A DNA stretch of 60,464 nt, filler included, from Vannella sp. (lineage: Eukaryota), in assembly GCA_023345925.1 (NCBI GenBank). It is 5 parts of 5 records of this genome, joined end to end, with 100 filler letters (N's around TTAATTAATTAA, not from the genome) between each part and the next. Parts side by side here need not be neighbours in the genome. Positions count along the whole stretch, not along the records: positions 11,205 to 26,322 come from JAJQQN010000351.1; 4 more parts are not named here. One strand, given 5' to 3'. Positions within the stretch are counted from its first letter, which is position 1. Each line of letters opens with the position of its first letter. Under the pieces are notes generated by a model. The model made no database searches. It was given only the letters and a program-made list of their open reading frames with translations, and was not told the DNA's origin. Positions 13,551 through 18,892 of this stretch are shown one piece after another. Made by a program: the position numbers and the translations under genes.

Positions 13551-14850
13551 ATGGCAACCCCCTCCCAAACCTCCCAACCTACAGAGGGACGCGTCGCCTT
13601 CATTACTGGTATCACAGGACAGGATGGAAGCTATTTGGCTGAGTTCCTGTTGGAAAAAGGCTACTTTGTGCATGGCATGCTCCGGAAGTCTTCAACCTTC
13701 AACACCAGCCGGATCGACCATTTGACGAGCGACTCTCACTCCAAGGATAGAAGTAAGGCCTAATTGATTTACCTACGATTTATCCTGATGAGTACAGGGT
13801 TCTTCCTCCACTATGGAGACCTCACCGACATGGCTTCCCTTCACAAGCTCATTTCTACGATCCGTCCCGACGAAGTCTATAACTTGGCATCGCAGACGCA
13901 CGTGCGCTTCTCGTTCGACCACCCCGTGTTGACTGCTGAGTCTACCGGTGTGGGAGCCCTTCGCCTCCTTGACGCTATTCGCAACTGCGGCCTCGAGAAA
14001 ACAGTTCGCTACTACCAGGTAATATGTTTAGAAACTGAAAGCTCTTTGATGCTCACTCAACGTCCCCAAAGGCCTCCACCAGTGAGCTTTATGGAGAATC
14101 ACAGGTGATCCAGAACGAGCAAACTCCCCTCAACCCTTGCTCTCCCTACGCCATCGCTAAGGTTCGTACTTTGGTTTAGACCTTCTATGGTACAAGTTTA
14201 ACACATGTTGTAGCTGTTTGCCCACTACACCACCATCAACCACCGCAACGCTTACAACATGTTCGCCTGCTGTGGCACCCTGTTCAATCACGAGAGTCCC
14301 AGACGAGGAGAGACCTTTGTGACCCGCAAAATCACCCTCGGTGTTTCGAAGATCCATGTGGGTGTCTCTGATTGCATCTATCTCGGCAACATCGACTCCA
14401 AGCGCGATTGGGGACATGCCAGAGACTATGTGGAGGCTATGTGGTTGCTTTTGCAGCAAGAAAAGCCCCGCGACTACGTCATTGCCACTGGTTACACTGT
14501 CACCGTTCGCTACTTTGTGGAACAGGCCTTCAAGTGCATTGGTGTTACCATCCGGTGGGAAGGTGAGGGCGTCGACGAGATTGGTATCAACGCAGAAACT
14601 GGAGCAGTTGTTGTCCGTATCGATCCTCAGTACTTCCGCCCTACCGAGGTGCCCTTCCTCTGTGGTGATGCCTCGTTGGCCAACAAAGAGCTTGGCTGGG
14701 TTCCGAAGATCTCTCTTGAGGTGAGCCCCGTTCATCCCTTTGACAAACAACCAGTAAGCTAACCCATTTGTCCAGGAAATGTGCAAGGAGATGGTCGAAA
14801 GTGACTTGAAACTGATCAAGTTGAGGGCACTGGAAAAGAAGTTTGCCTAA
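13551..14850 (+). CDS. gmd: GDP-mannose 4,6-dehydratase (4 introns)
   Basis: [69 protein letters not shown]. Confidence 0.96.
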
Positions 14851-15099
14851 GTTAACTTGCTCTGGTTCTGCCATCATTCATGGCTGAGCCAGTTATTTAA
14901 TCCTCTCGAGGCACATACATCATCCTTTCCATGTTCCACACTTGTGAGCCCGTCTTAACCCTGCTTGCCAGACAGAGGCTGGTGATGGGCAACTCTTTGG
15001 AGGCTGAAAATGGCGCATGCGAGGCCCGGAGACTCGAATTGAAACTTTGCAGATTATTTATGGTCGATTTCTAAAGGGGACTTACAATTTCATTCCATC

Positions 15100-16224
15100 A
15101 TGGCCAAACCTCTCGTCCTCGTCACTGGCGGAACTGGTCTTGTTGGTCACGGGATCCAAGACGCAATTGAGCTTCTCAAAAAAGAGGAAGGAGTTTTGGG
15201 TGGGCAAGTGGAGGCCTGTGAATGGCGCTTTCTCAGCTCCAAAGACTGCGACTTGAAGTAGGTCCTTCCTTCGTACCGAACAGCCCGCTTACCTTGATGC
15301 TTAGAAACAAAGCGGCTACTGAAGCTTTCTTTCTGGAGAACAAGCCCGCTTTCGTGATCCACACCGCAGCCATTGTGGGAGGTTTGTTCAAGAACATGAA
15401 CGACAACTTGGGCATGTATCAGGGTAACATGGACATCAACAGAAATGTCCTCGAGGCTTGCCACAAGTCTGGAGTGAAGAAGCTTGTCTCTGTGCTGTCC
15501 ACTTGCATCTTCCCTGACGCCATCGAGTCTTACCCCTTTGACGAGAAGGTGATCCACATGGGCCCTCCTCACTTCTCCAACGAGGGTTACGCCTATGCTA
15601 AACGTATGCTCGATGTTGAGACTCGCCTGTACCGCCAACAGTTCGGAGTAGACTACGTTTGCGCGATCCCAACGAACATCTTTGGCCCATTTGACAACTT
15701 CCACCTCGGAGACGCTCACGTCGTACCAGCTCTCATTCACAACACTTCAATCGCTCAGGCTAATGGTACTCCTCTCACAGTCCTGGGCAGTGGAAGTCCT
15801 CTCCGCCAGTTCGTGTACTCCGTGGACATCGGGCGAGTGTTGGCCTGGATGCTGTTCAACTACAGTGACCCTGAGCCGATGATCATCGCACCGGAGCAGG
15901 AGATCTCCATCAAGGACTTGGCTCACGCTGTCATTGAGGCTTGGAAGGAACCTGTCGAGATCAAAGTGAGTCCTTGAAACGATCAACCTCTGTGAGAGCC
16001 CTTGTCTAATGTACCCTCAGTTTGACACTTCCAAAGCGGATGGCCAGTTCAAGAAGACTGCCAGCTGCGCGAAGTTGCGACGAGTCTATCCAGAGTTCGA
16101 GTTCACACCACTCAAGAAGGGTAAGGAAGCTCTGCCAGTCGATAGAAACGATTCTAAGAGATGTTTAGGACTGGTCGACACCTGTGCTTGGTTCAAAGCC
16201 AACAAGGAAACGATCAGAAAGTAG
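15100..16224 (+). CDS. fcl: GDP-L-fucose synthase (GDP-4-keto-6-deoxymannose 3,5-epimerase/4-reductase; GFUS/TSTA3), 3 introns
   Basis: [70 protein letters not shown]. Confidence 0.95.
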
Positions 16225-16280
16225 TCTGAATTGCTCAGGAAGGAGGGCGGCAACACTGGCACTCTAAAAGGGGTTCCCAC

Positions 16281-17222
16281 TCAACTTCTTTCACTTTTCA
16301 TCCTTTGGAAGAGCGCTCTGAGAGCTTGATCGATCGGGGGAAGGTCAGGATACTCTGCCAACAGTTTGGTGACATCCAGAAAGGTGTTTGACCGAGGTGC
16401 AATGAGGATACGAGCCTGTTCTTCCTCCGTAAAGTTCTGCCAGGTGAAGGAGGGGTCGATGAGATCCTGATAGAGCTGAAGGAGGAAGTTGTGAGAGACG
16501 CAGCCAGGGTTGGTAAAGTTGTAAATGCCCGTTCTCCCCTTCGCACAGAGGTCCACTGCCAGAGGAAGGAGATCTGTCAAGACACTCATTGAATTGGGCA
16601 CGTCCACCACCCGCTCGTAACCGATCAGTTTCGTTAGGAGCGATCGCTCATGCAAGTCATCAGACAGTGGCATCCTCAACCGGAGGATTAGACAAGAGGG
16701 GTAATGCTGTAAGAGACCTTCTGTTACGGCTTTACTGTAGGAGTAGAAAGAGCCCTGAAAGTTGGGAGAGTCCTCTTCGGTCACTCCCCGCACGGACGGA
16801 AGCGGGCATTCTGTTGGGTGGGGCGTGGGAAATGTGGTACTGTACGTGTAGAGGCAACCCGTACTAAAGTAAGTGAGATGCACTCCCAAGCTTGCGCAGA
16901 GGGAGGCAACATTCAGAGCTCCTATGACGTTTGACTGGAGGGTTTCGTCCTTGTGGGTCTCACACCAATCCACATTAGGTCTTCCCGTCTTTCCCGCACA
17001 GTTGATTACACGCCACAGAATAGAGCGTGGAGGGTTGTGCCAGTTTCGCATCTCTTCTTCTACTTGAGCCCGGTTCTCCAGTCGGGCGAGGCCAGCCACC
17101 ACCTGCATTTGCTCTACCTCGGACGAACTCACCCCTTTTAATAGATCCACCATCTTCCCACCCACCCAACCACTCGCTCCATACACCAACACCACCCGAA
17201 CCACCTCCCTGTCGGAGTCCAT
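16281..17222 (-). CDS. UDP/dTDP-4-keto-6-deoxyglucose 3,5-epimerase/4-reductase (NRS/ER-type, L-rhamnose synthesis), intronless
   Basis: VYGASGWVGG, NCAGKTGRPNVDWCE, PNFQGSFYSYSK, LRLRMP, GIYNFTNPG, APRSN: motifs of plant NRS/ER and the RHM C-terminal domain. Confidence 0.92.
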   Translation of the reverse strand: MDSDREVVRVVLVYGASGWVGGKMVDLLKGVSSSEVEQMQVVAGLARLENRAQVEEEMRNWHNPPRSILWRVINCAGKTGRPNVDWCETHKDETLQSNVIGALNVASLCASLGVHLTYFSTGCLYTYSTTFPTPHPTECPLPSVRGVTEEDSPNFQGSFYSYSKAVTEGLLQHYPSCLILRLRMPLSDDLHERSLLTKLIGYERVVDVPNSMSVLTDLLPLAVDLCAKGRTGIYNFTNPGCVSHNFLLQLYQDLIDPSFTWQNFTEEEQARILIAPRSNTFLDVTKLLAEYPDLPPIDQALRALFQRMKSERS

Positions 17223-17351
17223 AGAAAGGGCTCGCAATGATAATGCCAATCCAAGGAGAGAATATCAATATCAGAGATGATAGGAAGAAAAATGGTCGCA
17301 CTTTTGAAACTGCGAAAAAGTTCCGAATTTTCCTGTTTTTTGGCTCCCGCG

Positions 17352-18892
17352 ATGGCGTACACCACTCAAGACTCTGGAGATCTCTCCACTACCGACTACC
17401 GTTTGTTTGCGAGTGCGTTAAGCTCGGGAAGAGTAGGTGTGATAACTGATGGGAGAATGGCTAGAGAGGGATGGAAAGTTCGTGTCCTTCCTGCATGACA
17501 TCCCCCTTTACGCCAACGAGGAGAAGACAGTCCTCAACATGGTCGTGGAGATCCCTCGTGGCACCAATGCCAAGATGGAGATCTGCCTGAGCGAGGAGGG
17601 AAACCCCATCAAGCAAGACGTGAAGAATGGAGCTCTTCGCTTCGTTCATGACATCACCCCTTACTCTGGTTACATCTGGAACTACGGAGCGCTACCTCAG
17701 GTGTGTGCTCCCTCGCCTCTCTTTGCCTCTGCTCAATCTCGCCCTTAGACGTGGGAAATGCCAACTCACAAGCACCCCGACACCGGCTACTATGGTGATA
17801 ACGATCCTCTTGATGCCTGCGAGATTGGAACTGCTGTGGGAGTACGAGGGCAGATCAAGCAGGTGAAGCCTCTTGGTGTGATGGCGTTGATCGATGAAGG
17901 TGAGTTGGTCCCCCTTCCACTCCTAGCAAGGCGGCGTGTCTTACCTGTGGCGTGAAGGTGAAACGGATTGGAAGGTTCTTGTCATTGACGTGACCGATCC
18001 ACGAGCGGACGAGTTCAACGACATCAGTGACGTGCAAAGACTCTTGCCTGGGTTCACCATGGCCACTTACGAGTGGTTCCGAACGTACAAAATCCCTGCT
18101 GGCAAGCCTGCCAACGAGTTTGCATTCGGTGGTGAAGCCAAGGGGCGCGCGTACGCTCTTGACGTCGTTGCTGAGAACTACGAGTTCTGGCAGCGCCTCG
18201 CCACTGGTGCGATGCCACCAAAGGGCGACAAGTACAACATCAGCGTGTGAGTGCATTCCATCACTTCTGTTGCCACTCACCAACAAGAACGCAGCGCCAA
18301 CACAACCCTCGAAGGCTCCTACAAAGTCGACGAGCTTCAGGTCGCCCTGAAGGAGTTTGTCCCTGTTGCCACTCAAAAGGCTGCAGAGCAAGCTGCCCCT
18401 GTCTCTGTCAAACAGATTGTGGAAGAGAAGCAACGAAACTCTCCTCACGGAACTGCAGAGCTCTCTCAAGTGGTTCAAGCTTTGGCTGCTGCAACTCAAA
18501 AGGCTGTTTCTGCAGGCCCTGCAGGCATTGCTGAGGTCCTCAAGGCTCAAAACTTGGCTGCTGTTTACAGCTCTGAGAGTGAGAGCGCCTTGTCAACAAA
18601 TAACGAGGGCCACTACACAGTCTACTTCTCAGCCAAGGATGGTTTGGTGACTTACGGAGTTTACCAAAAGGCCACCACTCACCGCATCGAGTTTAACCTT
18701 GCCAATGAGGTGACAGCAGCTGGGTATGATCTCGTTGCAGCTGCTTTTGCCCGCGCTGGAAAGTTCACTTTCTCCACTCGCCACGGCGCTGTCAGTTTTG
18801 GTGCTGAAGGGGTTGTCGAGGCGGACGCTGTCCCCTCTGTGGAGAGCGAGAGCCTTCTTGCAGTCAAGGCCCCTTTGGCTTTTTTTGCCTAA
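17352..18892 (+). CDS. ppa: Family I inorganic pyrophosphatase with ~190-aa C-terminal extension (degenerate FBPase-like domain)
   Basis: [62 protein letters not shown]; intron 18247-18294 links in frame to ORF 18251-18892. Confidence 0.9.

What the first reader, a model, noticed from the sequence alone, without database searches (positions are those of the whole stretch)
13551..18892. Eukaryotic deoxy-sugar nucleotide gene cluster: gmd, fcl, rhamnose epimerase/reductase, pyrophosphatase
Seen: four consecutive genes on one contig with nothing between them. gmd and GDP-fucose synthase are in tandem (~250 bp apart), the NRS/ER gene converges on them (56 bp gap), and PPase is head-to-head with NRS/ER (~130 bp). 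Known: gmd+fcl is the complete de novo GDP-L-fucose pathway, in the same order as bacterial gmd-wcaG; NRS/ER finishes NDP-L-rhamnose synthesis; PPase pulls NDP-sugar pyrophosphorylase reactions. These genes are usually unlinked in model eukaryotes. gmd, fcl and ppa carry spliceosomal introns and sit between RhoGAP and Nup188, so this is not bacterial contamination. Inference: an operon-like cluster supplying fucose and rhamnose for a surface coat or cyst wall. The glucose 4,6-dehydratase needed upstream of NRS/ER is not in the window.
Basis: partly seen in the sequence, partly recalled or inferred. Interest (0 to 1): 0.85.

Follow-up and report, generated by a model that had tools for sequence, protein, structure and literature searches.

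The report
Amoeba fucose and rhamnose gene cluster
In an uncultured biofilm protist, likely an amoeba, three intact genes predicted to make the sugar donors GDP-fucose and UDP-rhamnose lie side by side, a layout common in giant viruses but seldom seen in eukaryotes; the pyrophosphatase next door is likely a bystander.

Summary
Four intact genes lie back to back on a 15.1-kb contig between a RhoGAP gene and Nup188: gmd (4 introns), fcl (3), intronless NRS/ER on the other strand, and a yeast-type PPase (4 introns). Nup188's best named hit is Balamuthia, so the host is probably an amoebozoan.

The enzymes are ordinary. fcl is the eukaryotic FX type, so this is not a bacterial gmd-wcaG operon, and 'operon-like' is unsupported. 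Three nucleotide-deoxysugar genes in a row are unlikely by chance. The same trio occurs in giant viruses (5 of 80 viral fcl loci), and gmd sits beside fcl in one green-algal contig.

PPase was beside none of 216 viral or metagenomic loci. NRS/ER lacks the host codon bias that gmd, fcl and ppa show, so it may be a later arrival or weakly expressed. Trees do not nest the genes among viruses or bacteria, but AU tests reject no origin. Synteny in true relatives and expression could not be tested.

Verdict: a real three-gene fucose/rhamnose precursor cluster; a new member of a known kind, of moderate interest.

The parts
13551..14850 (+). [quoted passage not shown]
   Evidence: Open spliced frame; PF16363 on the three exons scanned; PDB GMDs E 5e-66 to 1e-61; TIGR01472; motifs GITGQDG, T144-S-E146, Y167-x3-K171 (catalytic roles recalled)
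15100..16224 (+). fcl, GDP-L-fucose synthase of the eukaryotic FX/TSTA3 type, 324 aa; exons 15100-15257, 15305-15965, 16021-16120, 16169-16224
   Evidence: human GFS E 3.4e-70 vs E. coli 2e-27; S118/C120, Y148/K152, H191 present (roles recalled)
16281..17222 (-). NRS/ER (UGER), bifunctional 3,5-epimerase/4-reductase, 313 aa, no intron, no host codon bias
   Evidence: Arabidopsis 4QQR E 1.7e-82, mimivirus L780 7JID E 4.9e-54; C123 and K198 align with L780 catalytic C108 and K175; forms a clade with P0002, P0005, P0006/P0121; codon bias -0.006
17352..18892 (+). Family I soluble inorganic pyrophosphatase, 444 aa, with an unexplained C-terminal extension; probably a bystander; exons 17352-17412, 17465-17700, 17749-17899, 17958-18246, 18295-18892
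   Evidence: PF00719 on exons 2-4; yeast PPase E 3.6e-30; last exon has no Pfam or NCBIfam hit
11207..13392 (-). Left flank: FERM_f0 / RhoGAP / SH3 exons, head-to-head with gmd (158 bp; start codon predicted)
   Evidence: PF16511, PF00620, PF00018; spacing
18988..24382 (-). Right flank: Nup188, convergent on ppa (95 bp)
   Evidence: PF21093; best named hit Balamuthia mandrillaris E 1.6e-80; upstream exon 23963-24382 inferred from ORF list

Best explanation
gmd, fcl and NRS/ER are three intact neighbouring genes of a probable amoebozoan that likely form a selected cluster supplying two 6-deoxy-L-sugar donors, while the adjoining pyrophosphatase is likely a housekeeping neighbour. GMD would dehydrate GDP-D-mannose to GDP-4-keto-6-deoxy-D-mannose, and the FX-type synthase would epimerise and reduce it to GDP-L-fucose. 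NRS/ER would epimerise and reduce UDP-4-keto-6-deoxy-D-glucose to UDP-L-rhamnose, taking its substrate from an unlinked 4,6-dehydratase. The donors would feed fucosyl- and rhamnosyltransferases for secretory, surface and nucleocytoplasmic glycans. The genes would be transcribed separately. The cluster most likely arose by relocation of old eukaryotic-type genes, with the intronless, codon-atypical NRS/ER added last. Shown: gene structure, adjacency, family, conserved catalytic residues, codon bias. Inferred: activities, substrates, selection for linkage, order of assembly, glycan end use.
For: Open spliced frames and GT-AG introns. Family matches with catalytic residues intact. Three-gene adjacency improbable by chance. 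gmd-fcl linkage recurs: 41 of 80 viral fcl loci, 34 of 80 metagenomic fcl loci, and one eukaryotic contig, L202, whose fcl groups with Chlamydomonas and Ostreococcus and whose gmd has an intron. The trio recurs in 5 of 80 viral loci. In free trees gmd lies with or beside named eukaryotes, fcl is not nested in the viral clade, and NRS/ER is outside both the L780-like viral clade (99.8/100, 100/100) and the Chlamydiae/Dependentiae clade (97.8/95). gmd, fcl and ppa segments rank in the top 4 of 31 for host codon bias; NRS/ER is lower than 30 of 31. PPase absent from 216 of 216 loci. Characterised NRS/ER-type enzymes use UDP/dTDP-4-keto-6-deoxyglucose (PMC9614988, PMC9741107 passages).
Against: No genome of a relative could be read, so conservation of the linkage is untested; the clade-specific NRS/ER pattern matched nothing in IMG/VR, JGI metagenomes or GTDB. 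5 of 6 eukaryotic metagenomic fcl loci lack gmd in their partly short flanks, and 0 of 80 metagenomic fcl loci carry NRS/ER. AU tests reject no origin: gmd eukaryote 0.70 / virus 0.089 / bacteria 0.42; fcl 0.51 / 0.56; NRS/ER 0.07-0.65, lowest for grouping with named Amoebozoa. Quick trees forced to join window and viral genes scored higher than the free quick trees. The rhamnose pathway's first enzyme is not in the cluster. NRS/ER's codon usage argues against equal expression with gmd and fcl (p=0.007, 0.021), though gmd also differs mildly from fcl and ppa (p=0.035, 0.032).
Confidence: 0.55

Rival explanations
1. All four genes are one co-regulated unit: a bidirectional promoter couples NRS/ER and PPase, which pulls the NDP-sugar pyrophosphorylase steps.
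For: 129-bp head-to-head gap; ppa codon usage indistinguishable from fcl (p=0.53) and equally biased; the thermodynamic role of PPase is textbook.
Against: ppa in 0 of 216 viral/metagenomic loci and one weak hit in 80 prokaryotic loci. gmd is just as closely head-to-head with a RhoGAP gene (158 bp). NRS/ER and ppa differ most in codon usage (p=0.0005). No pyrophosphorylase was seen on the contig.
Confidence: 0.18
2. The trio is an old giant-virus glycosylation cassette that was integrated and domesticated (gained introns and host codon usage), or host and viral cassettes share descent.
For: The trio occurs in 5 of 80 viral fcl loci, two with fcl and NRS/ER convergent as here (L066, L130), two with NRS/ER fused to a 4,6-dehydratase (L073, L115). 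AU tests do not reject viral sisterhood. fcl shares a 2-residue deletion with 14 of 80 viral fcl. NRS/ER is intronless, codon-atypical and weakly sister to a Pithovirus-containing clade (82; p-AU 0.60).
Against: None of the three genes nests inside a viral clade. Viral-trio NRS/ERs are L780-like and separated from the window's by a 99.8/100 branch. gmd orientation differs from L066/L130. No viral hallmark gene was seen on the contig. Best IMG/VR NRS/ER 51% versus 55-58% for the unnamed clade mates.
Confidence: 0.12
3. Chance adjacency in a gene-dense genome, or a chimeric metagenome contig.
For: Gaps of 56-250 bp are typical here; the gmd-fcl and NRS/ER-ppa junctions were not among the bridging pieces shown; no relative shows the linkage.
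Against: Uniform GC and intron style.
Confidence: 0.08
4. NRS/ER sits here because it shares GMD's product: acting on GDP-4-keto-6-deoxy-D-mannose it would give GDP-6-deoxy-L-glucose (L-quinovose), so the trio is one branched pathway.
For: It explains why the usual partner dehydratase is absent. The clade has private insertions and an APRSN[TI]FLD variant found in 5 of 123 proteins screened. The product follows from NRS/ER stereochemistry (my reasoning).
Against: Characterised NRS/ER-type enzymes use UDP/dTDP substrates (PMC9614988 passages). Fungal dehydratase and epimerase/reductase genes can be unlinked (Botrytis Bcin03g03060 vs Bcin06g02380, PMC7695001 table). Viral trios carry their own dehydratase.
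Confidence: 0.07

Closest known systems
Giant-virus (Nucleocytoviricota) glycogene clusters; PBCV-1 GMD A118R/GMER A295L; mimivirus R141/L780 (PMC9614988 passages)
   Same: Same three enzyme families; gmd beside FX-type fcl in 41 of 80 viral loci and the trio in 5 of 80; each gene with its own promoter rather than an operon (as the review says of viral clusters).
   Different: Here cellular, intron-bearing and flanked by RhoGAP and Nup188. NRS/ER is not of the L780 clade. No 4,6-dehydratase or glycosyltransferase nearby.
Eukaryotic nucleotide-sugar gene groupings: Cyanidioschyzon subtelomeric dehydratase/reductase genes (PMC1955436 legend), Ostreococcus chromosome 19 clusters (PMC5082852 passages), brown algal FK-GFPP/sulfotransferase cluster (PMC11468063 passages)
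   Same: Sugar-donor genes physically grouped in a eukaryotic nucleus.
   Different: Different enzymes. Here the de novo fucose pair plus the second rhamnose enzyme, amid housekeeping genes, with no transferase or transporter.
Bacterial gmd-fcl (wcaG) of colanic acid and O-antigen operons (recalled)
   Same: Same order and strand for gmd then fcl; same pathway.
   Different: fcl is eukaryotic FX type; spliceosomal introns; 249-bp gap; NRS/ER instead of RmlC/RmlD and on the other strand.
Arabidopsis NRS/ER (PDB 4QQR) and fungal UGER
   Same: Single RmlD-like domain, E 1.7e-82, catalytic Cys and Lys conserved.
   Different: Two clade-specific insertions and an APRSN[TI]FLD motif; linked to gmd-fcl.

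Membership tests
GDP-mannose 4,6-dehydratase | Profile match plus GxxGxxG, T-x-E and YxxxK motifs | tested here: met
   PF16363 up to 1.7e-65, TIGR01472 7.7e-78 on one exon (below the whole-protein cutoff because partial), motifs present
GDP-L-fucose synthase, eukaryotic FX type | Closer to human GFS than to E. coli Fcl; Ser/Tyr/Lys and Cys/His present | tested here: met
   E 3.4e-70 vs 2e-27; residues (roles recalled)
NRS/ER (UGER) | Single RmlD-like domain with L780 C108 and K175 equivalents | tested here: met
   C123 and K198, assuming a 3-residue tag offset in chain 7JID
NRS/ER (UGER) | Converts UDP/dTDP-4-keto-6-deoxyglucose to NDP-L-rhamnose | not testable with these tools
   Needs an enzyme assay
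Family I soluble PPase | PF00719 and acidic active-site motifs | tested here: met
   has an extra C-terminal region of unknown family
Bacterial gmd-fcl operon or a recent transfer of one | Bacterial-type Fcl, intronless, co-oriented polycistron | tested here: not met
   FX-type fcl, 7 introns in gmd+fcl, NRS/ER antisense
Endogenised giant-virus glycogene cassette | Genes nested in viral clades | tested here: inconclusive
   Not nested in any tree, but AU rejects no placement
Endogenised giant-virus glycogene cassette | Viral hallmark genes or foreign composition nearby | tested here: not met
   Flanks RhoGAP, Nup188, LIM, PheRS; GC as host; only NRS/ER is codon-atypical
Eukaryotic metabolic gene cluster | Three or more non-paralogous pathway genes adjacent beyond chance | tested here: met
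   note they span two pathways and all are ancient SDR-fold homologues
Eukaryotic metabolic gene cluster | Linkage conserved in relatives | tested here: inconclusive
   No relative's DNA found; gmd-fcl adjacent in 1 of 6 unrelated eukaryotic loci
Eukaryotic metabolic gene cluster | Co-expression | not testable with these tools
   No RNA holder listed

The most novel reading that the evidence does not exclude
The amoeba placed a divergent NRS/ER beside gmd-fcl because it works on GMD's product, creating a branched GDP pathway that makes both GDP-L-fucose and GDP-6-deoxy-L-glucose. This would be a host counterpart of giant-virus sugar cassettes that lets the cell switch its surface deoxysugars.
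Probability: 0.07. Interest if true: 0.75.

Novelty: new member of a known kind. Interest (0 to 1): 0.4.

Why it matters
De novo fucose genes are on separate scaffolds in Schistosoma (PMC3718619 table) and, from recall, unlinked in human, Arabidopsis, Dictyostelium and trypanosomes. A cellular gmd-fcl-NRS/ER trio that mirrors giant-virus cassettes shows that the same module can be assembled in an amoeba-type host. It offers a place to ask whether hosts and their viruses exchange or converge on sugar-donor clusters. The enzymes themselves are ordinary, and without synteny or expression data the claim stays modest.

Tried and rejected
No whole genome is held. No RNA holder listed. Single-protein viral scans with NRS/ER and P0006 found no close relative. 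A clade-specific degenerate pattern matched the window but nothing in IMG/VR, JGI metagenomes or GTDB. The 659-kb contig behind P0006 and the 900-kb contig behind Nup188 hit P0364 could not be fetched.

PPase C-terminal exon: no Pfam or NCBIfam hit; ESM Atlas best 0.78, a lead only; single-sequence AlphaFold pLDDT 34, so no fold search was run. The sigma-70 scan of the RhoGAP-gmd gap was empty and is not informative for a eukaryote. I ran no formal shared-motif test on the intergenic gaps.

Trees: the first NRS/ER tree was the quick fallback. Rows were dereplicated (fcl 187 of 279; gmd 106 of 187) and hand-picked subsets of 34-56 rows were used for AU tests. No named amoebozoan gmd or fcl was available for them.

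Rejected: bacterial contamination or operon transfer; local tandem duplication (the three SDRs belong to separate ancient families); L144's neighbour as an NRS/ER (weak RmlD-like only); L209 as a eukaryotic example (its genes group with viral rows).

Ten literature searches showed no report of a gmd-fcl-NRS/ER cluster in a protist. Only listings and selected passages were seen, no supplements, and subscription papers are missing (Martinez 2012 not held).

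
Full report
Observation. The window joins five contigs with N-spacers, and the finding lies on the second (11205-26322). Four genes are intact after splicing: gmd (364 aa, 4 introns), fcl (324 aa, 3), NRS/ER (313 aa, none, minus strand) and ppa (444 aa, 4). 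All 11 introns are GT-AG and 45-58 nt. Gaps are 249, 56 and 129 bp. ppa ends 95 bp from Nup188, and gmd starts 158 bp from a divergent RhoGAP gene, so close spacing is the norm in this genome. Logan contigs of three biofilm-metagenome runs (one study, perhaps the source) bridge fcl-NRS/ER and ppa-Nup188 and list no joint in the cluster. Only 24 of 125 pieces were shown, and the other two junctions are not among them.

Host. The best named Nup188 hit is Balamuthia mandrillaris (E 1.6e-80), the next named one Gefionella (4.7e-43), among the top 10 hits looked up out of 150. Named NRS/ER hits include Dermamoeba, Mastigamoeba, Entamoeba and Paradermamoeba. An amoebozoan is therefore likely, but not shown.

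Enzymes. gmd matches solved GMDs. fcl is far closer to human GDP-fucose synthase than to E. coli's (3e-70 vs 2e-27), which removes the analogy of descent from a gmd-wcaG operon. NRS/ER matches Arabidopsis 4QQR and mimivirus L780 and keeps the equivalents of L780's catalytic C108 and K175 (PMC9614988 passages). ppa is a yeast-type family I enzyme whose last exon has no recognised family. No UDP-glucose 4,6-dehydratase is in the window; such genes can be unlinked, as in Botrytis (PMC7695001 table).

Is the grouping real? With assumed gene numbers, three nucleotide-deoxysugar genes in a row have p of 1e-7 to 1e-6, and at most about 1e-3 after allowing for many possible pairs (my estimate). Relatives could not be read: no genome is held, and the NRS/ER clade mates P0002, P0005 and P0006/P0121 were not found as DNA in three collections. 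I therefore surveyed homologous loci instead:
- Best 80 of 430 viral fcl loci: 41 have gmd and 5 also an NRS/ER-like gene, one weak. Near-duplicates are included.
- Best 80 of 593 metagenomic fcl loci, from 9 of 64 parts scanned: 34 have gmd, none NRS/ER. Most look viral.
- 56 viral NRS/ER loci: 1 has gmd and fcl.
- Best 80 of 249 prokaryotic NRS/ER loci: 1 has gmd, none fcl, 1 a weak PPase hit.
- PPase: 0 of the 216 viral and metagenomic loci.
Six metagenomic fcl loci over 5 kb fall among eukaryotes in the tree (L137, L144, L148, L162, L202, L206). One, L202, a green-algal-type contig, has an intron-bearing gmd convergent on fcl 862 bp away. The other five lack gmd, some with short flanks. 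So gmd-fcl linkage is common in viruses and occasional in eukaryotes, the trio was seen elsewhere only in viruses, and PPase is not part of the pattern.

Origin. In free trees gmd sits with or beside named animals and fungi. fcl is a long branch at the junction of cellular and viral sequences. NRS/ER's clade lies outside both the L780-like viral genes and the Chlamydiae/Dependentiae genes. No AU test rejects a viral, bacterial or eukaryotic placement, and for NRS/ER grouping with named Amoebozoa scored worst (p 0.07) and a Pithovirus-like sister nearly as well as the free tree (0.60). The origin is unresolved. The introns and host-like codon use of gmd and fcl only exclude a recent arrival.

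An internal asymmetry. gmd, fcl and ppa have the strongest host codon bias in the window (0.10-0.11), while NRS/ER has none (-0.006, lower than 30 of 31 equal-length segments). It differs from gmd, fcl and ppa at p=0.007, 0.021 and 0.0005, though gmd differs mildly from fcl and ppa too (0.035, 0.032). Its lack of introns is weak evidence (p 0.05 at local density, and multi-kb exons occur nearby). NRS/ER is thus either weakly expressed or a later insertion between fcl and ppa. Both readings argue against a tightly co-expressed four-gene unit.

Mechanism. Most likely (0.55) GMD and FX make GDP-L-fucose, and NRS/ER finishes UDP-L-rhamnose from an unlinked dehydratase's product. The genes are separately transcribed and kept together by selection, with PPase a neighbour. 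A coat or cyst wall is only one possible sink: Acanthamoeba and Dictyostelium fucosylate secretory, surface and nucleocytoplasmic proteins (PMC11853108 passages). Rivals are a four-gene unit (0.18), a domesticated viral cassette (0.12), chance or chimera (0.08), and NRS/ER acting on the GMD product (0.07).

Prior knowledge. Giant-virus glycogene clusters (PMC9614988) and eukaryotic sugar-gene groupings in Cyanidioschyzon (PMC1955436 legend), Ostreococcus (PMC5082852) and brown algae (PMC11468063) are published. Schistosoma GMD and GMER lie on different scaffolds (PMC3718619). Passages of two fungal surveys (PMC8092308, PMC10481521), the Trichomonas rhamnose paper (PMC9741107) and the Acanthamoeba genome paper (PMC4053784) showed no such cluster. 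All papers were seen as keyword passages only, without supplements. Ten searches found no protist gmd-fcl-NRS/ER cluster. Non-linkage in human, Arabidopsis, Dictyostelium and trypanosomes is recalled, not checked.

Verdict. A real, probably non-random three-gene cluster of ordinary enzymes. It is a new member of a known kind, interest 0.4.

Noticed in passing
window 18295-18892: The PPase carries a C-terminal extension of roughly 150-190 aa with no Pfam or NCBIfam match; ESM Atlas gives only weak YbjN/CesT-like leads (0.76-0.78). If intron 4 is retained, a stop at 18248-18250 gives a short catalytic-domain-only form.
   Followed up: partly
L202:7053-9801: Green-algal-type contig with fcl and an intron-bearing gmd convergent 862 bp apart: a second eukaryotic gmd-fcl pair.
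   Followed up: partly
L073:9904-11775; L115:712-2613: Giant-virus genes fusing NRS/ER (N-terminal) to a 4,6-dehydratase (C-terminal), the reverse of plant RHM order (order recalled), directly beside gmd and fcl.
   Followed up: partly
L209:4-6500: fcl, MFS_5 transporter, gmd, TPT-family nucleotide-sugar transporter and a RecD-like helicase in a row; probably viral; a GDP-fucose module with transporters.
   Followed up: partly
L144:249-10816: Green-algal-type contig with ribulose-phosphate epimerase, an NTP-transferase/HAD fusion, an RmlD-like SDR and fcl within 11 kb.
   Followed up: partly
P0003, P0004, P0007, P0008, P0009, P0016, P0244: Proteins with tandemly repeated NRS/ER domains, or repeated GMD domains (P0244), in metagenome or transcriptome data.
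   Followed up: no
window 4244-10474 (contig 1): Neurofibromin-like RasGAP with a CRAL/TRIO domain encoded largely by one 6.2-kb exon.
   Followed up: no
window 26784-34883 (contig 3): An open frame of at least 2700 codons with five CUB domains, fn3 and EGF; lowest GC3 in the window; likely a large surface receptor.
   Followed up: no
window 52404-56691 (contig 5): Tandem helicase-C and F-box/SNF2 genes, possibly a local duplication.
   Followed up: no
window 25500-26322: End of contig 2 (PheRS alpha region): laid contigs show many differences, loose ends and higher depth, suggesting a second copy, allele or local misassembly; 6.5 kb from the cluster.
   Followed up: no
L225-L247: The closest named prokaryotic NRS/ERs are mostly from Chlamydiae and Dependentiae, bacteria of protists (host range recalled).
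   Followed up: partly
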